DNA of 13,763 nucleotides, taken from the IMG/VR virus record IMGVR_UViG_2537562217_000016. One strand, 5' to 3'. Positions 1 through 13,763 of this stretch are shown here, one piece after another (position 1 is the stretch's first letter; every line of letters starts with the position of its first letter). The translations under genes and the position numbers were made by a program. Origin of the DNA: a virus (taxonomy: Duplodnaviria; Heunggongvirae; Uroviricota; Caudoviricetes). The notes below the pieces were generated by a model, which saw nothing but the letters and a program-made list of their open reading frames with translations, was not told where the DNA came from and did not search any database.

Positions 1-1259
<1,259 letters not shown>

Positions 1260-1284
<25 letters not shown>

Positions 1285-2833: not shown

Positions 2834-2840
2834 AACAAAA

Positions 2841-2863
2841 CCGGAAAGCACAATGCTTTCCGG
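2841..2863 (-). terminator. Rho-independent terminator for the leftward repressor transcript
   Basis: Perfect 10-bp stem ccggaaagca / tgctttccgg with a 3-nt loop, followed on the minus strand by TTTTGTTTCA (2840..2831). About 85 bp downstream of the repressor stop and abutting the dam stop. Confidence 0.55.
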
Positions 2864-2949
2864 TAAACCAAACAACTTCCACTATGTCACTGGCGATGTT
2901 TTCTGAAAGCATCCAGATCAACCACCTGTCCTTTGTGTCCGGGTCAGTA

Positions 2950-3306
2950 TCAGCCTGCGATTTTTCCTGGTTTTGGCTGAGTATAGAATCGCCCAATCTC
3001 AAGAAATGAGCGTTGTTGGTCTGGTGTCATGTCGTCAAAAGTATCTATTAGTTTTTGTTTTTCTGGGGAAATTTGATTCTGGTTTCTAGTCATACCATCT
3101 GTGCTCATTCCAGTGAGCAACCAATTTACATCAACATTAAACTCTTGATGCATCTTTAACAGAAACTCCCCTCCAGGCATCGCCTTTCCATTTTCAATCT
3201 GACTGATACCACCATTAGAAATACCTAAACGAGCTGCAAATTCTCTCTGGTTCAACCCTGCTTTCTTCCTCACAGAAATAACGCGCTCTCCTATATCTTT
3301 GCTCAT
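2950..3306 (-). CDS. Phage repressor, XRE/Cro-CI family HTH
   Basis: HTH_3 signature LNQREFAARLGISNGGISQIENGKAMP near the N-terminus; divergent from the early operon; operator half-site overlaps its start codon. Confidence 0.8.
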   Translation of the reverse strand: MSKDIGERVISVRKKAGLNQREFAARLGISNGGISQIENGKAMPGGEFLLKMHQEFNVDVNWLLTGMSTDGMTRNQNQISPEKQKLIDTFDDMTPDQQRSFLEIGRFYTQPKPGKIAG

Positions 3307-3329
3307 AAAAGTGAATCTCTATCTTGATA

Positions 3330-3347
3330 TGCTCATAATTATGAGCA
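3330..3347. promoter_or_regulatory. Operator: perfect 18-bp palindrome TGCTCATAATTATGAGCA within a candidate early promoter
   Basis: Read directly. It fills the spacer between candidate -35 TTGATA (3324..3329) and -10 ATAATC (3348..3353); a third copy of the half-site TGCTCATAA sits at 3300..3308 over the repressor start codon. Confidence 0.5.
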
Positions 3348-3399
3348 ATAATCTAACACATATAAGGCAAACATCATTGCATCAACAAAGGAGACAACG

Positions 3400-3588
3400 A
3401 TGACTGCAGAACAAGTCAAAGCTCTCTTCCGCCAGCGCGGGATCACTTTCACCCGCTGGGCAGAAGAAAACGGCTACAACCGCAATGAGGTATACCGCGT
3501 TCTCAACGGGCAGACCAAAGCCCGTTACGGTAAATCCCATGAAATCGCCGTGAAGTTGGGACTGAAATCAACAGCTCAGGCGGCCTAA
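3400..3588 (+). CDS. ner: Ner-like small DNA-binding protein (winged HTH, Ner/Nlp-type), first gene of early operon
   Basis: RBS AGGAG 3389..3393, ATG 3400. 62 aa with HTH and a C-terminal GKSHEIAVKLGL resembling the Ner/Nlp GE.IIAKALG motif; position equivalent to Mu ner. Confidence 0.6.
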   Translation: MTAEQVKALFRQRGITFTRWAEENGYNRNEVYRVLNGQTKARYGKSHEIAVKLGLKSTAQAA

Positions 3589-3640
3589 ATATTTTGAGTC
3601 TTTGTAAAAGGTTATCACATATCGCAAAAGAGGTATGCAG

Positions 3641-3949
3641 ATGAGTAAGACGAATGTTTCAAGCTCCGGCAGTCGCATCCTCCGGGTACTCAAAGCGCTG
3701 CGCGGTCATGCCCTGAACGGTATTTCTAACGGTGAACTGGCGACAGCACTGCACGAGTCACCGGCAAACATCAACCGGGCACTCAACACCCTCATTGAAG
3801 AAGGGCTGGCTCTGAAACTGGAGAACGGACGTTTTGCACCGGGCATCCAGTTACTGCAGATCGCCATGGCCCACAGTAACGAGATGGCACGTGCACAGGA
3901 TCGTATTAACGAAATTAACCAACGTGTCATTTCAGGTAGTCGTTTGTAA
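3641..3949 (+). CDS. Winged-helix DNA-binding protein (MarR/IclR-like HTH), hypothetical regulator
   Basis: RBS AAAAGAGG 3626..3633 favours ATG 3641 over ATG 3635. Motif GISNGELATALHESPANINRALNTLIEEGL is typical of a wHTH recognition helix. Confidence 0.6.
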   Translation: MSKTNVSSSGSRILRVLKALRGHALNGISNGELATALHESPANINRALNTLIEEGLALKLENGRFAPGIQLLQIAMAHSNEMARAQDRINEINQRVISGSRL

Positions 3950-3959
3950 GGAGTAATCA

Positions 3960-4880
3960 ATGGGACGTACCAAATCACCGATTAACACTGAACTGAACGC
4001 CGATGTACCGCTGTCGGATGATCTCAACGTCAGCCTGAATGCCATGACACAGCATCGCATGGAGATCATGCAGCAGTTTGGTGATGGACTGCCTTATGAA
4101 CGTGAACGCATCGTTCACGAAGCACGTTTTTATATGGCGCAGAGTGCTGAATCTATGTTGGAAGCGGGTAAGCGGCTGATCATCTTAAAAGAAAATGAAC
4201 CGCATGGTGATTTCACAAATATTCTGGAAAACGACCTCGGATTAGCACCACAGGTAGCTCGTCGCATGATGCAGGCCAGCGTGAAATTTCTCGGCAATGG
4301 AGATGAACAGCCAAAACGCTCAGCGCTGAGCGTTTTGGGAAAAACCAAGTTATATGAACTGATGGTTCTGGATGACGAAGAACTCGACGCATTAGCTGAT
4401 GGTGGAACCGTCGCCGGTGCAACGCTTGATGATATTGATCGCATGACCAGCCGCGAACTGAAGGCCGCCCTGCGTGAAGCGCGCGAAACCAACGCAGCTC
4501 AGCAACAGGTGCTTGCCGGAAAGGACGAAAAAATCAACGAACTGGCCACAAAACTGGAGAAGAAATCGCGCCTGCAACCTCCGCCGCCAGACGAAGAACT
4601 GAAAAAATTGCGGGCGGAAGTGACGGCATTAGCGGTTGAGGCCGAATCGGCTATCGCCGTCCGGCTGTCCAGTGTTTTTGAGACCCTGTGTGAATACTGC
4701 ACCAAAAACATGATCGATACCCCCAGAGATTTCATGGCCGGTCTGGTCTGCCAGATTGAACGCAGTGTTCATGCATTACGTGAGACGTTTGACCTTGAGG
4801 CCGCTCCATCGGGTAACGATGCCCCCGCCTGGCTGACCGAACCGGAACCTGAAATCAACCGACCGGAGGATATGCAGTAA
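3960..4880 (+). CDS. Hypothetical protein with DUF3102-like N-terminal region and central coiled coil (306 aa)
   Basis: RBS TAAGGAG 3948..3954, ATG 3960. Coiled-coil-like segment ETNAAQQQVLAGKDEKINELATKLEKK...LKKLRAEVTALAVEAE; the DUF3102 resemblance is recalled, not searched. Confidence 0.65.
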   Translation: MGRTKSPINTELNADVPLSDDLNVSLNAMTQHRMEIMQQFGDGLPYERERIVHEARFYMAQSAESMLEAGKRLIILKENEPHGDFTNILENDLGLAPQVARRMMQASVKFLGNGDEQPKRSALSVLGKTKLYELMVLDDEELDALADGGTVAGATLDDIDRMTSRELKAALREARETNAAQQQVLAGKDEKINELATKLEKKSRLQPPPPDEELKKLRAEVTALAVEAESAIAVRLSSVFETLCEYCTKNMIDTPRDFMAGLVCQIERSVHALRETFDLEAAPSGNDAPAWLTEPEPEINRPEDMQ

Positions 4881-5197
4881 TGAATACGAATAACACACAA
4901 AATACCCTGATGGACAGCCCGGAGGCACTGGGGCACGCACTGTGTAATCTGCTGCCGGAGATGGTGCAGGGTTTCCGCGTGGTGACCCCTTCCGGTGAAA
5001 TCTGCGTACCCGCACAGGAGACGCACCCGTTTGTACTGACGATGGAGGTGATGCTGATGCAGCAGATAAGACGTCTGCAGAATCAGTCAGCATTACGCCC
5101 GGTAGTTGCACCGCAACCGGTAAATACCGTGGTGAAAACCTGCGATGGCGAAACACTGTGCGACCTCGCCAGAAAAATTGCCGCCAGAATCGGATAA
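4880..5197 (+). CDS. Hypothetical protein (105 aa)
   Basis: Start ATG overlaps the upstream stop (TAATG at 4878..4882), indicating translational coupling; no recognisable motif. Confidence 0.5.
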   Translation: MNTNNTQNTLMDSPEALGHALCNLLPEMVQGFRVVTPSGEICVPAQETHPFVLTMEVMLMQQIRRLQNQSALRPVVAPQPVNTVVKTCDGETLCDLARKIAARIG

Positions 5198-5212
5198 CAG
5201 GGAAGACAAGCT

Positions 5213-6982
5213 ATGACCCCGGCACTGACTGAAAAACTGGTTGAAACAGCCCGCGCGGCACGTGACGCGGGGCATGGTAAACGCGGTGCAATATACGACG
5301 CTGCCTGTGCTGAACTTGGCATGTCCCGCGCCACTCTGCTGCGCAGGCTGAAGGAGGTATCTGTGACTGATAAACGCAAAAAACGCGCCGATGCCGGGCG
5401 CAGCGCCCTGACCCGCGACGAAGCCGCGCTGATATCTGCCACACTGCGTGAGGCCACCCGCAAGAACGGTAAGCGTCTCTATTCCATCGCAGATGCAGTG
5501 GAAACCCTGCGGGCTAACGGCTTTATCACCGCAGGCAGAACAGATGAAACCACCGGTGAGTTTTTCCCGTTGTCTGAAGATGCCATCAGCCGTGCTCTGC
5601 GTAACTATGGCCTGCACCCGGAACAACTGGATGCCCCTGCACCACATACCGAAGTGGCCAGTCTGCATCCCAATCATGTCTGGCAGATTGACGCCTCACT
5701 CTGCACGCTTTACTACCTGAGCAATGGACATAAAGGGCTGCAGGTGATGGACAGCGCGAAGTTCTACAAGAACAAGCCCGCTAACCTTGCCCGTATCGCC
5801 AGTGACCGCGTGTGGAGTTACGAGATTACCGACCATGCCAGCGGCTGGATTTACGTTGAGTATGTGACGGGCGCGGAATCAGGTGAGAACCTGTGTTCTG
5901 TGCTTATCAACGCCATGCAGGAGCGTGGCGGCGCAGACGTGCTGCACGGCGTGCCGAAAATACTCTATCTCGACCCCGGCTCGGCAAACACCGCGGGTAT
6001 GACGAAAAACATGTGCCGCTCACTGGGCATCGACCTGATAGCGCACAAGCCGCATAACGCCCGCGCCACCGGACAGGTGGAAAAGGCGCGTGACATTATC
6101 GAACGCAAGCTGGAGCCGGGTCTGAAGTTCCGGCCGGTTCACAGTCTGGAAGAACTCAACGCGCTGGCCGCGAAATGGCGCAGCCACTTTAACGCCACGG
6201 CTGTTCACAGCCGCCACGGTAAAACCCGCACGGATATCTGGCTGAAGATTACTGCTGAGCAGCTGAAAAAAGCGCCTTCCGTTGAGGTATGTCGTGAACT
6301 GGCTGTGGCGGCACCAGAACTCCGCAAAGTCACGCCAAAACTTCGTGTCTCGTTCCGGGGCACTGAATTTGACGTATCAACGGTACCGGGCGTACTGGTT
6401 GGTGAAAAACTGATGATTACCCGTAACCCATGGCGCAGCGATGTGGCACAGGTGGTTCTGACCGGTGAGGACGGCCACGAGACGTTCTTCCTGGTCGAAG
6501 AGGTCAGAAAGAACAAGTTTGGCTTTGCTGAAGGCGCGGCGGTATTTGGCGAAAGTTACAAAGCCCTGCCGGAAACCCCGGCACAGATGGCGGCAAAAGA
6601 AACCGAAGCGCTGGTTACCGGTACAGACAACGCCGCAGATGCAGCCGCCGCACGCAAGGCGAAGGCGCTGCCGTTCGGCGGGCGGCTTGACCCGTATAAA
6701 CATATCGACGACACCACACTTCCGGCCTATATGCCGAAGCGTGGTCAGGCCTCTGACGTACGCGGGCCGCGCACTGAACAACGTCCCATGACTCATGTGG
6801 AGGCCGCGAAAGCCCTGCGCGATAAGTTCAGCGCCGACGGCCTTACCTGGACGCCGGAACATTACCGCCAGTTAACGGCACAGTACCCGGACGGCGTACC
6901 GGAAGCCGCACTGGATGAAGTCATGGCCACGCTGACCACACCGGCCCGCAGCAGTGTTATCAGCATTGTTAACGGCAACTGA
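5213..6982 (+). CDS. DDE transposase of transposable phage (TnsB/Tn552/TniA-type DD(35)E core; MuA analogue)
   Basis: Catalytic triad read from the translation: D160 (HVWQIDAS, codon 5690..5692), D254 (ILYLDPGS, 5972..5974), E290 (ATGQVEKAR, 6080..6082), i.e. D-93-D-35-E. Basic N-terminal DNA-binding region. Position between ner and the ATPase. Confidence 0.85.
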   Translation: MTPALTEKLVETARAARDAGHGKRGAIYDAACAELGMSRATLLRRLKEVSVTDKRKKRADAGRSALTRDEAALISATLREATRKNGKRLYSIADAVETLRANGFITAGRTDETTGEFFPLSEDAISRALRNYGLHPEQLDAPAPHTEVASLHPNHVWQIDASLCTLYYLSNGHKGLQVMDSAKFYKNKPANLARIASDRVWSYEITDHASGWIYVEYVTGAESGENLCSVLINAMQERGGADVLHGVPKILYLDPGSANTAGMTKNMCRSLGIDLIAHKPHNARATGQVEKARDIIERKLEPGLKFRPVHSLEELNALAAKWRSHFNATAVHSRHGKTRTDIWLKITAEQLKKAPSVEVCRELAVAAPELRKVTPKLRVSFRGTEFDVSTVPGVLVGEKLMITRNPWRSDVAQVVLTGEDGHETFFLVEEVRKNKFGFAEGAAVFGESYKALPETPAQMAAKETEALVTGTDNAADAAAARKAKALPFGGRLDPYKHIDDTTLPAYMPKRGQASDVRGPRTEQRPMTHVEAAKALRDKFSADGLTWTPEHYRQLTAQYPDGVPEAALDEVMATLTTPARSSVISIVNGN

Positions 6983-6992
6983 GGAGGGAAAC

Positions 6993-8159
6993 ATGCTGGT
7001 ACTGAAGCAGCAACTGAAAGAGGCCCGTATTCCACAGGCGGTGGTGGCGAGAGCTGTCGATGTTTCTGAGGCCACGCTGGCCCAGATTGTGAATCATAAC
7101 GCGTGGCCCCGCACCAGCCCCGGAGAAGTGCGCCGGCGTCTTGCGTCCTGGCTGGAAAGTCAGGGGATTGATACAACGAAGAGTTTTGATGCTGTACAGG
7201 GCGCGGCCACGCCCCGTACAGCGGGTACCACAGATAAAACGAGCCTCAGTGAGGAAGAGAATATGTTACTCAAAAAACAGGTGTTATTTCCAGCAACCAA
7301 AAAAGCGTTTGGTCTTTTCCGTGACCCGTTCGCCGACGAAGCCATGCAGGGTTCTGATGATGTGTTCACCACCCCGGATATTCGCTACGTGCGTGAGGCG
7401 TTGTACCAGACAGCCCGTCATGGTGGGTTTATGGCCGTCATCGGTGAGTCCGGTGCGGGTAAATCCACGCTGCGCCGCGACCTGACTGAACGTATCAACC
7501 GCGAGAATGCGCCGGTAATTGTTATCGAGCCATACATCATCGCTATGGAAGACAACGATGTGAAAGGGAAAACCCTGAAGGCAGCAGCGATTGCCGAAGC
7601 CATTATCAGTACCATCGCACCACTGGAAAGCATCAGACGCAGTCAGGACGCCCGCTTTCGCCAGTTGCATCGCGTCCTGAAAGACAGCAGCCAGGCGGGG
7701 TTCAGCCACGTTCTGGTGATTGAGGAGGCCCACAGTCTGCCCATTCCGACACTGAAACACCTCAAACGCTTTTTTGAGCTGGAGTCCGGTTTCAAAAAAC
7801 TGCTGTCCATCGTGCTGATTGGCCAGCCGGAACTGGCGACAAAACTGTCTGAACGCAATATGGAAGTCCGTGAAGTCGTTCAGCGCTGTGAGGTGGTCGA
7901 ACTTCTGCCTCTGGACAATAACCTTGAAGAGTTTCTGACGTTCAAACTGCAACGGGCCGGTAAACAACTGACGGACATTATGGACGCCAGCGCAGTGGAT
8001 GCCATACGTGCCCGCCTGAGCAATCCGGGAAGTCATCGTAAAAATATGGTCAGCCTGCTGTATCCGCTGGCCGTCAGTAACCTGGTAATAGCCGCCATGA
8101 ATCTGGCCGCTGAAATCGGGGTTCCACAGGTCAACGCTGACGTTGTCAAAGGGGTTTAA
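6993..8159 (+). CDS. Transposition-associated AAA+ ATPase (MuB/TniB/TnsC analogue) with N-terminal HTH extension
   Basis: RBS GAGGAGGG 6981..6988, ATG 6993, 10 nt after the transposase stop. Walker A GESGAGKST (~7441..7470), Walker B HVLVIEEAH; N-terminal HTH-like ARAVDVSEATLAQIVNHN. Confidence 0.8.
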   Translation: MLVLKQQLKEARIPQAVVARAVDVSEATLAQIVNHNAWPRTSPGEVRRRLASWLESQGIDTTKSFDAVQGAATPRTAGTTDKTSLSEEENMLLKKQVLFPATKKAFGLFRDPFADEAMQGSDDVFTTPDIRYVREALYQTARHGGFMAVIGESGAGKSTLRRDLTERINRENAPVIVIEPYIIAMEDNDVKGKTLKAAAIAEAIISTIAPLESIRRSQDARFRQLHRVLKDSSQAGFSHVLVIEEAHSLPIPTLKHLKRFFELESGFKKLLSIVLIGQPELATKLSERNMEVREVVQRCEVVELLPLDNNLEEFLTFKLQRAGKQLTDIMDASAVDAIRARLSNPGSHRKNMVSLLYPLAVSNLVIAAMNLAAEIGVPQVNADVVKGV

Positions 8160-8161
8160 TA

Positions 8162-8431
8162 ATGAAATCCACCACAGGTATCAACCAGCAAATCAGCAAA
8201 GTGCAGTCAGCCATTATGGCGCTTAAGGCGACGAACACGGATGTACAAAGCATCACCATCAGGGGTAACAAACCTGTCATCCGCGTTTCCCGGAGTGCGC
8301 ATTGCATGCGCATGCTTGAGCAGGGAAAGGCCTGTTATCTGTATACCGGTCATGACCACAGGGGACATTTCCGTCAGGGCGTTTTCGAACTGCACGGCTG
8401 TCGCGTCGTGTGGCCGGAATCTTTGTGGTAA
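8162..8431 (+). CDS. Hypothetical protein (89 aa) in the position of Mu kil
   Basis: ATG 2 nt after the ATPase stop; Cys/His-rich C-terminal half (HCMRM...CYLYTGHDHRGH...HGC). Function unknown. Confidence 0.5.
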   Translation: MKSTTGINQQISKVQSAIMALKATNTDVQSITIRGNKPVIRVSRSAHCMRMLEQGKACYLYTGHDHRGHFRQGVFELHGCRVVWPESLW

Positions 8432-8458
8432 TCAGCACAACAGGAGGAGTCATAAAAT

Positions 8459-8989
8459 ATGGCAAAAAGTACAAAAGGGGCAAAACGTATCAAAGCCGCA
8501 GCAGCACTCTGGGTGCCGGGGACACGCGAAGAGGTCATTGAGGGAATCAGACTGCTTGGTGACGCGCAACGTGAACTGGTCAGGGCTGAAACAGAAATGA
8601 ATGACACCATTGGCGACATCACTGCACGTTATGCCCCGCTCACCGAGAGCCTGAAAAAACGCATGGCCGAACTGCAGTCCGGTATCCAGACATGGTGTGA
8701 GGCGCACCGTGATGAACTGACCGGCAACGGGAAGGTGAAGTTCGCTAACCTCACCACCGGCGAGGTGCAGTGGCGAAACCGTCCGCCGTCAGTCAGCATT
8801 CGCGGGGCGGATAATGTCATTGAACTGCTGAGACGTCTGGGGCTTGAGCGCTTTATTCGTGTAAAGGAGGAAATAAATAAAGATGCCATTCTGAATGAAA
8901 AAGAGGCTGTGAAAAATATTCCCGGTATTACCATAAAAAGTGATATTGAGGATTTTTCAATAATTCCTTTTGAGCAGGATGTGCAGTAA
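8459..8989 (+). CDS. gam: Host-nuclease inhibitor protein Gam (Mu Gam family)
   Basis: RBS AGGAGG 8442..8447. Extended colinear similarity to phage Mu Gam as recalled: RIKAAAA, ETEMND, WCEAHRDELTGNGKVKFANLTTGEVQWRNRPPSVSIRG, LGLERFIRVKEEINKDAIL, GITIKSDIEDFSIIPFEQ. Confidence 0.9.
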   Translation: MAKSTKGAKRIKAAAALWVPGTREEVIEGIRLLGDAQRELVRAETEMNDTIGDITARYAPLTESLKKRMAELQSGIQTWCEAHRDELTGNGKVKFANLTTGEVQWRNRPPSVSIRGADNVIELLRRLGLERFIRVKEEINKDAILNEKEAVKNIPGITIKSDIEDFSIIPFEQDVQ

Positions 8990-11190: not shown

Positions 11191-11388
11191 ATGCAGAAAA
11201 AACGCCTGATACAGCTTATCCATATTGCCCGTAATGAACTGGGTATGGATGAAGACACCTACCGCCAGATGTTACAGGGGCTGACCGGTAAAGCCTCAAC
11301 CAAAGGAATGGATACCACACAACTAAACTGCGTGCGTAAGCGTCGTCTCAGCACCGTCTGGCAGATCCTGAAATTCCTGAGAGAATAG
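11191..11388 (+). pseudogene. GemA/gp16-like (DUF1018) gene truncated by IS66-family insertion; only ~48 native codons (11191..~11335) remain
   Basis: RBS AGGAG 11181..11185, ATG 11191. N-terminal LIQLIHIARNELGMDEDTYRQMLQGLTGKASTKGM matches the conserved start of Mu gp16/GemA-like proteins as I recall it. The reading frame runs into the IS end at ~11336 and stops at 11386..11388. Confidence 0.55.
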
Positions 11389-11416
11389 TGGACACCAAAT
11401 ATGGTGGACGCTATTC

Positions 11417-11821
11417 ATGAAATCATTAACCGCAGTGCGTAAAAAAAGCCCTAATTATCCCGTTGAGTTCAAAATCAAAATGGTGGAACTCTCGCATCGA
11501 CCAGAGATCTCCGTAGCGCAACTCGCTCGTGAGCATGGGATCAACGATAATTTGCTGTTCAAGTGGCGCCAGTACTGGCGCGAAGGAAAACTACGTCCTC
11601 CTTCAACAACAGAAAACAACGTGCCTGAGCTGCTCCCGATAACACTTGATGCCGAAGATGTTGTCCCTACAACCTCCCCCCGGTCACAACCTGTAGCTGC
11701 TGCGACACCTGAATCACTCAATATCAGCTGTGAAGTGACGTTCCGGCACGGATCACTCCGTCTGAATGGTGCCATCAGCGAAAATATCCTGAACCTGCTG
11801 ATACGGGAGCTCAAACGTTGA
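11417..11821 (+). CDS. tnpA: IS66-family accessory protein TnpA (orfA)
   Basis: 134 aa with HTH region ISVAQLAREHGINDNLLFKWRQYW; first ORF of the IS66 module. Confidence 0.85.
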   Translation: MKSLTAVRKKSPNYPVEFKIKMVELSHRPEISVAQLAREHGINDNLLFKWRQYWREGKLRPPSTTENNVPELLPITLDAEDVVPTTSPRSQPVAAATPESLNISCEVTFRHGSLRLNGAISENILNLLIRELKR

Positions 11822-12165
11822 TCCCATTACCATCAGGGACAAAGATCTGGCTGGTCGCTGGCATCACCGATATGAGAAACGGCTTCAACGGCCTGGCGGC
11901 AAAGGTGCAGACGACGCTGAAAGACGATCCGATGTCAGGTCACGTTTTTATCTTCCGTGGGCGTAATGGCAGTCAGGTAAAGCTCCTCTGGTCTACCGGC
12001 GATGGACTGTGTCTGCTGACCAAACGGCTGGAGCGCGGCCGCTTCGCCTGGCCGTCAGCCCGGGATGGCAAAGTGTTCCTCACACCGGCACAGCTGGCGA
12101 TGCTGCTGGAAGGTATCGACTGGCGGCAGCCTAAAAGACTACTTACGTCCCTGACTATGTTGTAA
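11818..12165 (+). CDS. tnpB: IS66-family TnpB (orfB)
   Basis: Highly characteristic IPLPSGTKIWLVAGITDMRNGFNGLAAKVQ... N-terminus; TTG start at 11818 overlaps the tnpA stop (11819..11821). Confidence 0.9.
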   Translation: MIPLPSGTKIWLVAGITDMRNGFNGLAAKVQTTLKDDPMSGHVFIFRGRNGSQVKLLWSTGDGLCLLTKRLERGRFAWPSARDGKVFLTPAQLAMLLEGIDWRQPKRLLTSLTML

Positions 12166-12213
12166 GCCTCTTTATCCTGGTCGACGCTGAATGAGCCTGG
12201 TAATATACCCGGT

Positions 12214-13751
12214 ATGAGCAGCTCACTTCCTGACGATATCAATGCACTGAAACGTCTCCTTGCCGAACAGGAGGCGCTGAACCGTGCCCTGCTGGAAAAG
12301 CTGAACGAGCGTGAACGCGAAATAGACCATCTGCAGGCACAGCTGGATAAGCTGCGCCGGATGAACTTCGGCAGCCGCTCGGAAAAAGTCTCCCGTCGTA
12401 TCGCACAGATGGAAGCTGACCTGAAGGCACTTCAGAAAGAAAGTGATACCCTTACCGGTCGGGTTGACGACCCGGCCGTGCAGCGCCCGCTGCGTCAAAC
12501 CCGCACCCGCAAACCGTTCCCCGAATCACTCCCCCGCGATGAAAAACGGCTGCTGCCGGCAGCGTCATGCTGCCCGGAATGTGGAGGCTCGCTGAGCTAT
12601 CTGGGTGAGGATGCCGCCGAACAGCTGGAGTTGATGCGCAGCGCCTTCCGGGTTATCCGGACTGTACGTGAAAAGCATGCCTGTACTCAGTGCGATGCCA
12701 TCGTGCAGGCCCCCGCGCCTTCACGGCCCATCGAGCGGGGTATCGCAGGACCGGGGCTGCTGGCCCGCGTGCTGATCTCAAAGTATGCAGAGCACACCCC
12801 GCTGTACCGCCAGTCTGAAATGTACGGCCGCCAGGGCGTGGAGCTGAGTCGTTCACTGCTGTCGGGCTGGGTGGATGCATGCTGCCGGCTACTGTCACCG
12901 CTGGAAGAAGCGCTTCAGGACTATGTGCTGACTGACGGTAAGCTCCATGCTGATGACACGCCTGTCCCGGTGCTGTTGCCAGGCAATAAGAAAACGAAGA
13001 CCGGGCGGTTATGGACCTACGTTCGTGACGACCGTAACGCCGGGTCAACGCTGGCGCCGGCGGTGTGGTTCGCTTACAGCCCGGACAGAAAAGGCATCCA
13101 TCCGCAGACCCATCTTGCGGGGTTCAGTGGTGTACTGCAGGCGGATGCATACGCCGGGTTCAACGAGCTGTACCGGGATGGCCGGATAACGGAAGCCGCC
13201 TGTTGGGCTCACGCCCGCCGTAAAATCCACGATGTGCACGTTCGCACCCCGTCAGCCCTGACGGAGGAAGCGCTGAACGGATCGGCGAACTGTACGCCAT
13301 CGAGGCAGAGATAAGGGGAATGACGGCGGAGCAGCGCCTTGCCGAACGTCAGTTGAAAACGAAACCGCTGCTGAAATCCCTGGAAAGCTGGCTGCGTGAA
13401 AAGATGAAAACCCTGTCGCGACACTCAGAACTGGCGAAAGCGTTCGCATACGCCCTGAACCAGTGGCTGGCGCTGACGTACTATGCAGATGATGGCTGGG
13501 CTGAGGCGGACAATAACATCGCTGAAAATGCGTTGCGGATGGTCAGTCTGGGCCGCAAAAACTACCTGTTCTTCGGTTCGGATCATGGAGGAGAGCGGGG
13601 AGCGCTGCTGTACAGCCTGATCGGGACGTGCAAACTGAACGGAGTGGAGCCAGAAAGCTACCTCCGCTATGTCCTTGACGTCATAGCCGACTGGCCGATA
13701 AACCGGGTCGGCGAACTGCTCCCCTGGCGCGTAGCACTGCCGACTGAATAA
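12214..13751 (+). pseudogene. tnpC: IS66-family transposase TnpC (orfC), interrupted by an apparent 1-nt frameshift near 13276..13278
   Basis: ORF 12214..13314 (366 aa; leucine-zipper-like N-terminus, CPECGG zinc-finger-like motif, DDE region) and ORF 13320..13751 (143 aa) are colinear in different frames. The downstream frame is already open from ~13260 (…[20 protein letters not shown]…), and the combined ~510 aa matches full-length TnpC. Confidence 0.8.
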
Positions 13752-13763
13752 CACATCCCCGTC

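What the first reader, a model, noticed from the sequence alone, without database searches (positions are those of the whole stretch)
3641..5197. Three-gene insert between ner and the transposase
In phage Mu the early operon runs ner-A-B with nothing between ner and A. Here three tightly packed, apparently co-translated genes sit in that slot: a winged-helix DNA-binding protein (3641..3949), a 306-aa protein with a DUF3102-like N-terminal region and a long coiled coil (3960..4880), and a 105-aa protein whose start overlaps the previous stop (4880..5197). They are expressed from the early promoter before the transposase, the timing at which a transposable phage would deploy regulators or host-takeover and anti-defence factors. 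None has an assignable function from sequence.
Basis: partly seen in the sequence, partly recalled or inferred. Interest (0 to 1): 0.55.

Follow-up and report, generated by a model that had tools for sequence, protein, structure and literature searches.

The report
Conserved early genes hiding a palindrome
The "three-gene insert" is mostly the normal, conserved early-gene layout of BcepMu/B3-type transposable phages (only the third small gene is a real add-on), but the middle gene (DUF3102) carries inside its own coding sequence a perfect palindrome that changes in step with the protein's predicted DNA-reading helix, which suggests that this widespread protein of unknown function binds a site in its own gene.

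Summary
The three ORFs exist as described (3641-3949, 3960-4880, 4880-5197). The window is an E. coli BcepMu-like transposable prophage, 99.7% identical to phage PhiKM. They are not an insert as a set. g1 (small MarR/IclR-type winged helix) and g2 (DUF3102) sit directly upstream of tnpA-tnpB in every relative examined: BcepMu gp12/gp10, B3 ORF14/13, phiSHP3 and about 100 prophage loci. Only g3 is lineage-restricted; phages with 99%-identical tnpA lack it. No function could be assigned to g3.

New observation: g2 contains a perfect 28-bp palindrome (4311-4338) in the codons of a low-confidence linker. It is single-copy and the longest perfect palindrome found by my scan of the PhiKM, BcepMu and B3 records. 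Alleles differ in sequence but stay palindromic (88 compensatory cells against 27.6±4 in shuffles). It lies at the centre of a hypervariable cassette that reassorts independently of its flanks. The inner half-site tracks residue 101 of the predicted recognition helix: Q with GCG/ACG, R with CGG/CGC, H with GTC. The same element is found at the same codons in many Firmicutes and Campylobacter DUF3102 genes.

Best reading: g2 is an HTH/coiled-coil protein that recognises a site in its own gene (inferred, untested). Anti-defence has no support.

The parts
3324..3352 (+). Sigma-70-like early promoter candidate (TTGATA-17-AATAAT). It overlaps an 18-bp perfect palindrome, TGCTCATAATTATGAGCA (3330-3347), a likely repressor or Cro-type operator.
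   Evidence: 10/12 match; palindrome; position between the divergent CI-like repressor gene (2950-3306, minus strand) and the ner-like gene. Function is inferred.
3400..3588 (+). First early gene: a small HTH protein of the BcepMu gp16 family (Ner/Cro-like by position, not a Mu Ner family member).
   Evidence: TIGR04111 97.4 bits against cutoff 34; Pfam HTH_35 below cutoff; phrog_925.
3641..3949 (+). g1: a 102-aa stand-alone winged-helix protein (MarR/IclR-type HTH plus a C-terminal helix). It is a conserved partner gene immediately upstream of g2 in the B3/BcepMu lineage.
   Evidence: Pfam HTH_IclR 26 bits against cutoff 22; profile hits to MarR/IclR structures at E about 1e-5; phrog_1368; synteny; dN/dS 0.03.
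3960..4880 (+). g2: a 306-aa DUF3102 protein. It has an N-terminal helical domain with a predicted HTH, a SAP-like 'DDIDRMTSRELK' motif, an antiparallel coiled-coil hairpin (about 164-250), a C-terminal helix and a conserved PxW tail.
   Evidence: Pfam DUF3102 27.0 bits against cutoff 24.4; phrog_1748 E=1e-143; AF2 mean pLDDT 72.8, 80-89 over residues 50-110; 1,585 representative clusters; always directly upstream of tnpA.
4203..4292 (+). Codons 82-111 of g2: predicted helix-turn-helix (HGDF-helix, LG turn, putative recognition helix APQVARRMMQASVKFL).
4209..4379 (+). Hypervariable cassette of g2 (codons about 84-140). It occurs as discrete allele types that reassort independently of ner, the repressor, g1, the rest of g2 and tnpA.
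   Evidence: Per-block identity profiles. Example: L058 has ner 100%, g1 99%, tnpA 98% and tnpB 100%, but g2 77%.
4311..4338 (.). Perfect 28-bp palindrome CCAAAACGCTCAGC|GCTGAGCGTTTTGG inside g2 (codons 118-127, PKRSALSVLG, the low-pLDDT linker). It is the proposed cognate cis-site of g2.
   Evidence: single copy and longest perfect palindrome found by my scan of the PhiKM, BcepMu and B3 records; covariation; helix/half-site association; same element in distant DUF3102 genes. Chance expectation is about 13763 x 4^-14 = 5e-5.
4880..5197 (+). g3: a 105-aa lineage-restricted accessory ORF whose start overlaps the g2 stop. Function unknown.
   Evidence: 11 clusters only; the 55%-identical allele lies in the same slot; absent from near-identical phages; present in 410 of 5,426 complete E. 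coli genomes; dN/dS 0.31-0.56; AF2 pLDDT 58.8 and no fold match.
5213..6982 (+). tnpA: a Tn552-type DDE transposase (589 aa) with no detectable Mu-type end- or enhancer-binding HTH domains.
   Evidence: Pfam rve only; phrog_310 aligned from profile position 130 onward; BcepMu gp09 is annotated as a Tn552/IS1604 rve transposase.
6993..8159 (+). tnpB: an AAA_22 transposition ATPase.
   Evidence: Pfam AAA_22 73 bits; phrog_296.

Best explanation
The interval holds three things.

(i) A conserved two-gene early module that belongs to the core of B3/BcepMu-type transposable phages. g1 is a small winged-helix protein. g2 is a DUF3102 protein.

(ii) One recently gained accessory ORF, g3, of unknown role.

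(iii) A cis-element hidden in g2. g2 is most likely a dimeric, coiled-coil, sequence-specific DNA-binding protein. Its HTH recognition helix (residues 96-111) would read the single-copy palindrome at 4311-4338, which is encoded in the tolerant linker of its own gene. Helix and site travel and evolve together as a specificity cassette, in the way lambda O and its ori do.

Proposed mechanism:
- Once made from the early promoter, g2 occupies this site about 870 bp upstream of tnpA.
- There it acts as a type-specific nucleoprotein landmark. The most likely role is an intragenic roadblock or feedback governor of read-through into tnpA-tnpB.
- An alternative role is an enhancer-like organiser of the transpososome, standing in for the enhancer-binding domain that this transposase lacks.

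Shown:
- The genes, their synteny and the accessory status of g3.
- Selection for two-fold symmetry at the palindrome.
- The cassette structure and the residue/half-site association.
- Family-wide conservation of the element.

Inferred:
- That g2 rather than another factor binds the site.
- What binding achieves.
For: Module conservation. Early transcription of the homologous pE operon in the B3-like phage Fc02: RNA-seq in PMC9936078.

Palindrome:
- It is perfect (14+14 bp), single-copy and the longest perfect palindrome found by my scan of each of the three phage genome records (PhiKM partial; BcepMu and B3 complete).
- It sits at the same codons in BcepMu (30 bp), B3 (26 bp) and most enteric loci, with more than 15 different inner sequences.
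- On 37 distinct sequences, 90.7% of cells are paired, and 88 cells carry changes on both sides against 27.6±4.0 in shuffles (0/500). The covariation score is 0.472, against at most 0.094 when partners are slid.

Symmetry fits duplex DNA better than an RNA hairpin:
- The second pair from the centre covaries (GC 22, AT 13, other 2). It does so through a synonymous Leu CTG/TTG choice that tracks Ala GCG/Thr ACG. Those positions would lie in a hairpin loop.
- G·T and A·C mismatches are balanced (18 vs 24).
- The T-run is only 3-4 nt.

Link to g2:
- The hypervariable cassette is centred on the palindrome.
- Helix residue 101 against half-site triplet 6-8: Q with GCG (15) or ACG (2), R with CGG (6) or CGC (4), V with GTG (4), H with GTC (3), with no exception in 37 allele combinations. 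Residues 98-99 track triplet 9-11.
- Over 152 protein combinations, the residue 101 / residue 120 pair has the highest mutual information, 0.93 bit.
- Loci with less than 65% flank identity but the same inner site share helix residues 98-101 in 59 of 72 pairs, against a background of 119 of 1022. Loci with more than 90% flank identity but different sites share them in 12 of 417 pairs.
- g1 is 99% identical across different palindrome alleles, so it cannot be the allele-specific reader.

Family-wide conservation:
- The same 'AAAT-N6-8|N6-8-ATTT' palindrome lies at the same 'xN-x6-LG' codons in Lactobacillus plasmids, a GBS phage and a Campylobacter phage.
- In the 27 unique Firmicutes-type viral segments I could locate (all 27), 9-12 of 12 positions are symmetric. 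Control centres give arms of at most 3.
- The Q with (A/G)CG and R with CGN pairings mostly hold there too.
Against: - No experiment shows DNA binding.
- The helix and the site are at most about 75 nt apart, so tight linkage alone could give much of the association. My tests are not phylogeny-corrected.
- There are exceptions: at the protein level Q-R 8 and R-A 5; L118 pairs Q with CGG and L192 pairs R with TCG.
- The palindrome also encodes residues 120 and 125, so protein-internal coevolution with residue 101 is not formally excluded.
- Some members lack the element: PM105/Ps60-type, KS10 gp15, the E. hormaechei phage-plasmid, and several Firmicutes genes; it is degenerate in Lonsdalea.
- My motif search failed in 43 of 80 Firmicutes-type loci, and these were not scored.
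- The RNA of the + strand does fold into a stable 12-bp hairpin (-27.7 kcal/mol for the 88-nt stretch, z = -3.5).
- The downstream role (roadblock or enhancer) is speculation.
Confidence: 0.55

Rival explanations
1. The palindrome is a nucleic-acid structure: an RNA hairpin acting as a weak intragenic terminator, attenuator or processing site in the early transcript, or a DNA hairpin or cruciform. It would have nothing to do with g2 binding. On this view the helix/site association is hitch-hiking within one small recombining block, and the flanking hypervariability is a by-product, for example breakage and gene conversion at a cruciform.
For: - Strict compensatory covariation over 12-14 pairs is what base-pairing selection produces.
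- The + strand RNA folds into a 12-bp hairpin; the 88-nt stretch around it has z = -3.5.
- The A-tract and T-tract flanks resemble a bidirectional terminator.
- Imperfect variants often have their mismatches next to the centre: L056, L083, L090.
- Early-operon reads are described as 'dwindling distally' in Fc02.
Against: - Positions that would form the tetraloop also covary: pair 16/19 shows 13 double changes and 2 exceptions.
- There is no excess of G·U-type over A·C-type mismatches on either strand.
- The T-run is only 3-4 nt and fails the terminator scan. It is shorter still in the Firmicutes versions.
- Mid-stem A·A mismatches persist in three genera (L003-5).
- The same residue/triplet pairings recur on unrelated helix backgrounds and in different phyla. 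Linkage alone does not predict this.
Confidence: 0.22
2. One reading: the genes are early-expressed host-takeover, anti-repressor or anti-defence factors occupying a variable slot before the transposase.
For: - Early-operon position.
- g3 is narrowly distributed, weakly constrained and recently gained or lost, the profile of a phage accessory ('moron'-type) gene.
- Other unrelated small ORFs occasionally occupy the same junctions.
- In Firmicutes phages the DUF3102 gene is often followed by an antirepressor gene.
Against: - g1 and g2 are invariant core genes in all relatives, not a variable slot.
- Both look like DNA-binding proteins.
- There is no significant hit to defence-related models and no structural similarity to any characterised protein.
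- For g3 there is simply no evidence either way.
Confidence: 0.12
3. g2 with its palindrome is a replication-origin-like or partition-like (centromere) module inherited from plasmids and phages. It would be retained in transposable phages for a role unrelated to control of the transposase genes.
For: - DUF3102 genes carrying the same embedded palindrome lie next to replication genes on Lactobacillus plasmids.
- The site-in-own-gene layout parallels lambda O/ori and the parS site inside spo0J (my own knowledge).
- The architecture of a coiled coil plus an N-terminal DNA-binding domain resembles KfrA-type plasmid proteins (my own knowledge).
Against: - There is one site only, with no iterons or adjacent AT-rich unwinding region.
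- Transposable phages replicate by transposition and need no origin or partition system.
- No ParA/ParB, KfrA_N or initiator domains are detected in g2 or its relatives.
- In most phages the gene is the second gene of the early operon rather than part of the replication module.
Confidence: 0.1

Closest known systems
BcepMu gp12/gp10 and Pseudomonas phage B3 ORF14/ORF13 (also phiE255 gp41, PM105_14/13, phiSHP3 orf18/orf17)
   Same: These are direct homologues in the same order and position: wHTH, DUF3102, transposase, ATPase. g2 is 39% identical to BcepMu gp10 and 48% to B3 ORF13. BcepMu and B3 carry the embedded palindrome at the same place.
   Different: BcepMu has an extra small gene (gp11) between the two, and the window has g3 after g2. 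In the deposited records these genes are annotated only as 'conserved protein', 'transcriptional regulator' or 'DUF3102'. I found no functional study and no mention of the palindrome.
Pfam DUF3102 (PF11300)
   Same: g2 passes the gathering threshold (27.0 vs 24.4 bits), as do 31 of 34 diverse relatives at E ≤ 1. The family is spread over phages and plasmids of Proteobacteria, Firmicutes and Campylobacter.
   Different: The family has no described function or structure. The transposable-phage subfamily has its own about 130-aa C-terminal extension (coiled-coil hairpin plus PxW tail) and a fixed position before tnpA.
Lambda O protein and ori-lambda (and other initiators whose site lies inside their own gene)
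   Same: Works like (analogy from my own knowledge): the binding site lies inside the protein's own coding sequence, in codons for a flexible linker, and the N-terminal DNA-binding part and the site form a type-specific cassette exchanged among related phages.
   Different: There is no sequence or fold relationship. There is a single palindrome rather than four iterons plus an AT-rich region, and the host phage replicates by transposition.
ParB/Spo0J-parS and KorB-OB or KfrA-type plasmid DNA-binding proteins
   Same: An HTH protein recognises a palindromic site that can lie inside its own gene (parS in spo0J). As in KfrA, there is an N-terminal DNA-binding domain followed by a long coiled coil (my own knowledge).
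   Different: No ParB, KorB or KfrA_N domain is detected in g2 or in 34 relatives. There is no partner ATPase of the ParA type and only one site per genome.
Phage Mu transpositional enhancer (IAS) and MuA domain I-alpha
   Same: A single-copy internal cis-site near the early promoter region is bound by a winged-helix/HTH module. The window's transposase lacks any such N-terminal domain, so a separate protein could supply the function.
   Different: The Mu IAS coincides with the repressor operators and is read by the transposase itself. There is no homology between g1 or g2 and the Mu DNA-binding domains. DUF3102 with its palindrome also occurs in non-transposable phages and plasmids, so an enhancer role cannot be the family's general function.

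Membership tests
Pfam DUF3102 (PF11300) | Score at or above the curated gathering threshold of the family model | tested here: met
   27.0 bits against cutoff 24.4, residues 65-173 on profile positions 24-128.
B3/BcepMu-type transposable-phage early module | Gene order wHTH, DUF3102, Tn552-type DDE transposase, AAA_22 ATPase, downstream of a BcepMu gp16-family HTH gene and divergent from a CI-like repressor | tested here: met
   PhiKM is classified as Bcepmuvirus.
IclR family transcription regulators (g1) | N-terminal IclR-type wHTH plus a C-terminal effector-binding (IclR_C/GAF-like) domain, about 250 aa in total | tested here: not met
   Only the HTH part matches (HTH_IclR 26 bits, residues 14-59). 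The protein is 102 aa and has no effector domain. It is a stand-alone MarR/IclR-like winged helix, not a full IclR-family member.
   17.9 bits against cutoff 25. It instead meets TIGR04111, the BcepMu_gp16 family (97.4 vs 34 bits).
Helix-turn-helix DNA-binding proteins (g2 N-domain) | Tri-helical fold with a conserved turn glycine and a recognition helix; demonstrated DNA binding | tested here: inconclusive
Protein/cognate-site specificity cassette (lambda O/ori-like logic) | The site lies within or next to the gene; site and DNA-reading residues co-vary; they are exchanged as a unit between relatives | tested here: met
   Physical binding itself was not tested.
Intrinsic (rho-independent) terminator | GC-rich stem-loop followed immediately by a run of at least 5 T in 8 nt | tested here: not met
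   The stem is present, but the T-run is only TTTT (or ATTT in many alleles). The element is not reported by the terminator scan.
Known anti-defence or defence-associated proteins | Similarity to a described defence or anti-defence family | tested here: not met
   PADLOC gives only weak HTH or coiled-coil noise (best E=2.5e-5 to the wHTH of a CARF protein; g3 has none). There are no structural matches. No dedicated anti-defence library was available.
ParB/KorB or KfrA DNA-binding families | ParB-type N-terminal or HTH domain, or the KfrA_N domain | tested here: not met
   No such Pfam hit in g2 or in 34 diverse relatives, even at E ≤ 1.

The most novel reading that the evidence does not exclude
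DUF3102 proteins, found in thousands of temperate phages, phage satellites and plasmids across at least three phyla, would be a previously unrecognised class of self-site DNA-binding proteins. Each gene carries its own cognate palindromic operator in the codons of an internal linker. The recognition helix and the site diversify together into many specificity types. In B3/BcepMu-type transposable phages this type-specific protein-site pair, placed just before tnpA, would govern expression or activity of the transposition machinery. Co-resident related prophages would then be controlled independently.
Probability: 0.45. Interest if true: 0.75.

Novelty: new variant of a known kind. Interest (0 to 1): 0.6.

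Why it matters
Taken as written, the finding is ordinary. These are the known, conserved but uncharacterised early genes of BcepMu/B3-type phages, plus one small accessory ORF.

What matters is the embedded palindrome. It gives a concrete, cheaply testable hypothesis for DUF3102, a domain of unknown function with about 1,600 clusters at 50% identity. That domain sits at the start of the early operon in many temperate phages and next to replication genes on plasmids.

The data also supply a natural 'recognition code' table: helix residue against half-site triplet over dozens of alleles. This could be checked directly by binding assays and used to design orthogonal protein/operator pairs.

For transposable phages, it points to a candidate cis-acting control site next to the transposase genes in a lineage whose transposase lacks the Mu enhancer-binding domain.

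It is also a clear example of a regulatory DNA element overprinted on coding sequence. Such an element constrains codon choice and creates a local hotspot of protein variation. Annotation pipelines and selection scans would misread this as diversifying selection on the protein.

Tried and rejected
- Sequence searches of all three proteins against PDB chains gave nothing for g2 and g3, and only sub-threshold MarR hits for g1 as a single sequence. A 34-sequence g2 profile found only a designed helical protein at E=0.09.
- Foldseek against BFVD returned only other DUF3102 proteins for g2 and nothing for g3.
- The afdb50 library was not available.
- PADLOC and NCBIfam gave no informative hit for g2 or g3. 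Rfam at gathering thresholds gave no family anywhere in the window.
- I considered g1 as a detached equivalent of MuA domain I-alpha. There is no similarity to the Mu DNA-binding domain models, and g1 is nearly invariant across palindrome alleles, so it is not the allele-specific reader. Rejected as stated.
- I considered the palindrome as an analogue of the strong gyrase site. It is not central in the genome (about 7-8 kb from the left end in BcepMu and B3). Rejected.
- I looked for extra copies of the half-site elsewhere in three phage genome records. None exceeded chance.
- I looked for Rosetta-stone fusions. Longer homologues (430-545 aa) carry Cys-rich N-terminal extensions with no Pfam match. 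Uninformative.
- The search for related loci with the 34-sequence alignment failed because it had no sufficiently conserved stretch.
- My regular expression located the linker motif in only 37 of 80 Firmicutes-type loci. The other 43 were not scored, so the family-wide frequency of the palindrome is not established.
- Literature searches for DUF3102, BcepMu interaction data and palindromes in transposable phages found no functional information.
Full report
**What the window is.** The 13.8-kb window is the early (left) part of a transposable prophage of Escherichia coli.
- Positions 2900-8500 are 99.7% identical to Escherichia phage PhiKM, which is classified as Bcepmuvirus.
- Positions 3300-5300 occur in 635 of 5,426 complete E. 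coli genomes. 409 of these cover at least 80% of the stretch, at many different chromosomal positions and with up to three copies per genome.
- The layout is: Dam-type methylase (1979-2833); CI-like HTH_3 repressor on the minus strand (2950-3306); promoter-like site at 3324-3352, overlapping an 18-bp palindrome; small HTH gene (3400-3588); g1; g2; g3; DDE transposase (5213-6982); AAA_22 ATPase (about 6993-8159); a small ORF; Gam (8459-8989).
- An IS66-family element has inserted into the gemA homologue further right.

**Checking the observation.** The g3 start overlaps the g2 stop in TAATG.
- Each ORF is a full-length member of a PHROG family.
- g1 is a 102-aa MarR/IclR-type winged helix without an effector domain.
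- g2 passes the Pfam DUF3102 threshold and is largely helical, with a long antiparallel coiled-coil hairpin.
- g3 has no family beyond its own small cluster.
- The gene called 'ner' belongs to the BcepMu gp16 family and is not a member of the Mu Ner family.

**Is it an insert?** For g1 and g2 it is not.
- I collected 19 loci from one-genome-per-species contigs, 80 viral contigs and the annotated genomes of BcepMu, B3, PM105, phiSHP3 and KP12. Every locus with enough sequence has g1-g2-tnpA-tnpB in this order, usually with 10-30 nt between genes.
- BcepMu gp12 and gp10, and B3 ORF14 and ORF13, are the homologues. They have been in the databases since 2004 as conserved hypotheticals.
- KS10 has a Mu/D3112-type transposase and still carries a distant g2 relative directly upstream of it, but no g1.
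- In the B3-like phage Fc02, RNA-seq shows that the whole pE operon, from ner through tnpA and tnpB to mor, is switched on within 10 minutes of induction. The authors state that most of its ORFs have no assigned function.

**g3 is different.**
- Only 11 protein clusters exist in 5.8 billion proteins, nearly all at least 89% identical. The one 55%-identical, 87-aa allele lies in the same slot.
- Phages whose tnpA and tnpB are 97-100% identical to the window's lack g3 and have a 19-nt junction instead.
- Its dN/dS is 0.31-0.56, against 0.03 for g1.
- Other loci occasionally carry unrelated small ORFs at the g2-tnpA or g1-g2 junction, for example BcepMu gp11.
Its AF2 model is poor (pLDDT 58.8) and matches nothing.

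**An unexpected pattern in g2.**
- g2 is by far the fastest-diverging gene of the module. Locus L058 shows ner 100%, g1 99%, tnpA 98% and tnpB 100% identity, but g2 only 77%.
- The divergence is concentrated in codons about 84-140. That segment occurs as discrete allele types that do not follow the phylogeny of the flanks or of ner and the repressor.
- A repeat scan then showed a perfect 28-bp palindrome at 4311-4338, CCAAAACGCTCAGC|GCTGAGCGTTTTGG, exactly at the centre of the hypervariable segment.
- It encodes residues 118-127 (PKRSALSVLG), which fall in the only internal low-confidence stretch of the N-terminal half of the AF2 model.
- The chance expectation for such a palindrome in the window is about 5e-5.
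- It is the longest perfect palindrome found by my scan and is single-copy in the PhiKM record and in the complete BcepMu and B3 genomes. No further half-site copies exceed chance.

**The palindrome is under selection as a palindrome.**
- At the same codons BcepMu has TTCAAAAGCGGCGTT|AACGCCGCTTTTGAA, B3 has CAAAACGGACAAC|GTTGTCCGTTTTG, and the enteric loci have more than 15 other versions.
- The outer CAAA(A/T)...(A/T)TTTG is conserved. The inner 7-8 bp differ but remain fully complementary.
- On 37 distinct sequences, 90.7% of cells are Watson-Crick or G·U pairs, and 7 of 14 pairs show changes on both sides. There are 88 compensatory cells against 27.6±4.0 in column shuffles (0 of 500 reach the observed value). 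The covariation score is 0.472, against at most 0.094 when the partners are slid by 1-3 columns.
- The encoded peptide changes radically between alleles (KRSALSVLG, KAQALALLG, NVPALAHLG, KAKTFSLLG and others). The constraint is therefore on nucleotides, not on the protein.

**Duplex DNA site or hairpin?** The + strand RNA can form a 12-bp hairpin. The 88-nt stretch folds at -27.7 kcal/mol, z = -3.5. Three observations favour two-fold symmetric recognition of duplex DNA.
- The second pair from the centre, which would lie in a tetraloop, covaries: GC 22, AT 13, other 2. It does so through a synonymous Leu CTG/TTG choice that follows Ala GCG/Thr ACG.
- G·T-type and A·C-type mismatches are equally frequent (18 vs 24). 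No transcribed strand is therefore favoured.
- The T-run is only 3-4 nt and fails the terminator scan. It is no better in the Firmicutes versions.

The hairpin reading is not excluded, and I keep it as the main rival.

**Who reads the site?**
- g1 is 99% identical in phages with quite different palindromes, so it cannot be an allele-specific reader.
- The hypervariable cassette of g2 includes a predicted helix-turn-helix just upstream of the palindrome. It has helix 82-92, an invariant LG turn and helix 97-111, whose invariant A100 and conserved MMQA..K(F/Y)L face follow a variable start.
- The variable residues fall at positions 2-3 and 6 of the putative recognition helix. In canonical HTH proteins these are base-contacting positions (established knowledge; applying it here is my inference).
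- Among 37 allele combinations with an intact palindrome, residue 101 predicts half-site positions 6-8 without exception: Q with GCG (15) or ACG (2), R with CGG (6) or CGC (4), V with GTG (4), H with GTC (3), A with NTG (3). Residues 98-99 track positions 9-11: QV with TCA, RI with AAA, RA/RV with ACA.
- These pairings recur on different helix backgrounds. For example, HERAAQR goes with GCGACAGC and HERAARR with CGGACAAC; PKSTAHR and ARQVAHR both go with GTC.
- Over 152 distinct protein combinations from the large protein searches, the pair residue 101 / residue 120 (the codon that spells positions 6-8) has the highest mutual information in the matrix, 0.93 bit.
- Loci whose g2 flanks are less than 65% identical but share the inner site share helix residues 98-101 in 59 of 72 pairs, against a background of 119 of 1022. 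Loci with more than 90% identical flanks but different sites share them in 12 of 417 pairs.
- This is the behaviour of a protein/site specificity cassette. It does not prove binding. The helix and the site are at most about 75 nt apart, the tests are not phylogeny-corrected, and there are exceptions.

**The element is a property of the DUF3102 family, not only of transposable phages.**
- Distant DUF3102 genes (about 28% identity) carry the same kind of palindrome at the homologous 'xN-x6-LG' codons:
  - L. plantarum plasmid: CAAATGTTGCGAC|GTCGCAACATTTG.
  - L. brevis plasmid: CAAATACGACGAC|GTCGTCGTATTTG.
  - L. pentosus plasmid: 13 of 14 positions.
  - A group B Streptococcus phage: AAATCGTTCAAC|GTTGAACGATTT.
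  - Campylobacter phage CJLB-5: 11 of 12 positions.
- Shuffled genes give best arms of about 7.
- In the 27 unique segments that I could locate in Firmicutes-type viral contigs (all 27), 9-12 of 12 positions are symmetric about the same centre. Control centres give arms of at most 3.
- The Q with (A/G)CG and R with CGN pairings largely hold there too.
- Not all members have the element. PM105-type, KS10, an Enterobacter phage-plasmid and several Firmicutes genes lack it, and Lonsdalea copies are degenerate. In addition, 43 of 80 loci were not scorable with my motif.
- In Firmicutes phages and prophage-like plasmids the gene is typically the second gene of the early operon, directly after cro and often before an antirepressor gene. 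On Lactobacillus plasmids it follows the replication gene.

**Mechanism proposed.**
- g2 is made from the early promoter and dimerises through its coiled coil.
- It then binds the single palindrome inside its own gene, about 870 bp upstream of tnpA.
- The element is conserved in families with and without transposases. The general function is therefore most simply local control.
- I think an intragenic roadblock is most likely. It would feed back on everything downstream (here tnpA-tnpB) while sparing the cro/ner-type first gene.
- In the transposable phages a second possibility is an enhancer-like role. The Tn552-type transposase lacks any counterpart of the Mu enhancer-binding domain.
- The many specificity types would keep co-resident related prophages from cross-talking.
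- All of this last paragraph is inference.

**Comparison with what is known.**
- The genes themselves are known members of known families (BcepMu gp12/gp10, DUF3102). As a gene-content observation the finding is ordinary.
- The logic of a site inside the protein's own gene, in linker codons, with the N-terminal specificity region exchanged as a cassette, is that of lambda O and ori. It is also partly that of parS inside spo0J.
- There is no homology to those systems, there is a single site rather than iterons, and no ParB, KfrA or initiator domains are detected.
- I found no description of the palindrome or of any DUF3102 function in the searchable literature. That library is incomplete: the original BcepMu and B3 genome papers were not readable.

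**Verdict.**
- The interval contains a previously unremarked, strongly selected, family-wide palindrome that co-varies with the predicted DNA-reading helix of the protein that encodes it.
- I rate this a new variant of a known kind, with moderate-to-good interest, because it turns a large domain of unknown function into a directly testable protein/operator hypothesis.

Noticed in passing
window 3330-3347: An 18-bp perfect palindrome, TGCTCATAATTATGAGCA, overlaps the spacer and -10 region of the predicted early promoter between the divergent repressor and ner-like genes. It is probably the repressor/Cro-type operator. It is also present in PhiKM.
   Followed up: partly
window 11191-13763: An IS66-family element has inserted into the gemA homologue, leaving only a 65-aa N-terminal GemA fragment. 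The element carries orfA (11417-11821), TnpB_IS66 (11818-12165) and a DDE transposase. The IS66 transposase is itself split into two ORFs (12214-13314 and 13320-13751). This prophage copy may therefore be defective for late gene activation.
   Followed up: partly
window 2840-2864: A perfect 11-bp-stem hairpin, ACCGGAAAGCACAATGCTTTCCGGT, with a T-run on the minus strand lies between the Dam methylase gene and the end of the repressor gene. It looks like a terminator for the repressor transcript. PhiKM has the same stem with a different loop.
   Followed up: no
window 5213-6982 (tnpA) compared with the phrog_310 profile: The transposase aligns only from profile position 130 of 696. It has no Mu-type HTH_Tnp_Mu or Mu-transpos_C Pfam domains. 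KS10, which also has a DUF3102-like gene upstream, uses a Mu/D3112-type transposase with Mu-transpos_C. The DUF3102 gene is therefore linked to two different transposase families.
   Followed up: partly
proteins P0191, P0201, P0205, P0247, P0248, P0257: Some g2 homologues are 430-545 aa long and carry 150-280-aa N-terminal extensions. Several of these have repeated Cys-rich (C-x2-C...H) motifs that look like zinc-binding modules. None has a Pfam match.
   Followed up: partly
L021 and L015 (Sodalis MAG), L017 and L094: Several relatives show decayed copies: g2 or tnpB split by frameshifts, duplicated g2 fragments, and a g2 truncated at codon 123 just after the palindrome in L094. These look like pseudogenised prophages.
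   Followed up: no
window 544-1284 and 1260-1664: A 246-aa ORF with a P-loop-like 'GPVGSGKS' motif near its N-terminus has no Pfam match. A 134-aa ORF lies on the opposite strand. Both sit in the region between the lysis genes and the Dam methylase gene, which differs between PhiKM and KP12 and may be another accessory region.
   Followed up: no
L117 (Enterobacter hormaechei IncFIB phage-plasmid), 5899-7506: A shorter (243-aa) DUF3102 protein without the palindrome lies two genes upstream of a Mor-family activator gene on an SSU5-like phage-plasmid. Another DUF3102 context therefore also involves Mu-type regulators.
   Followed up: no
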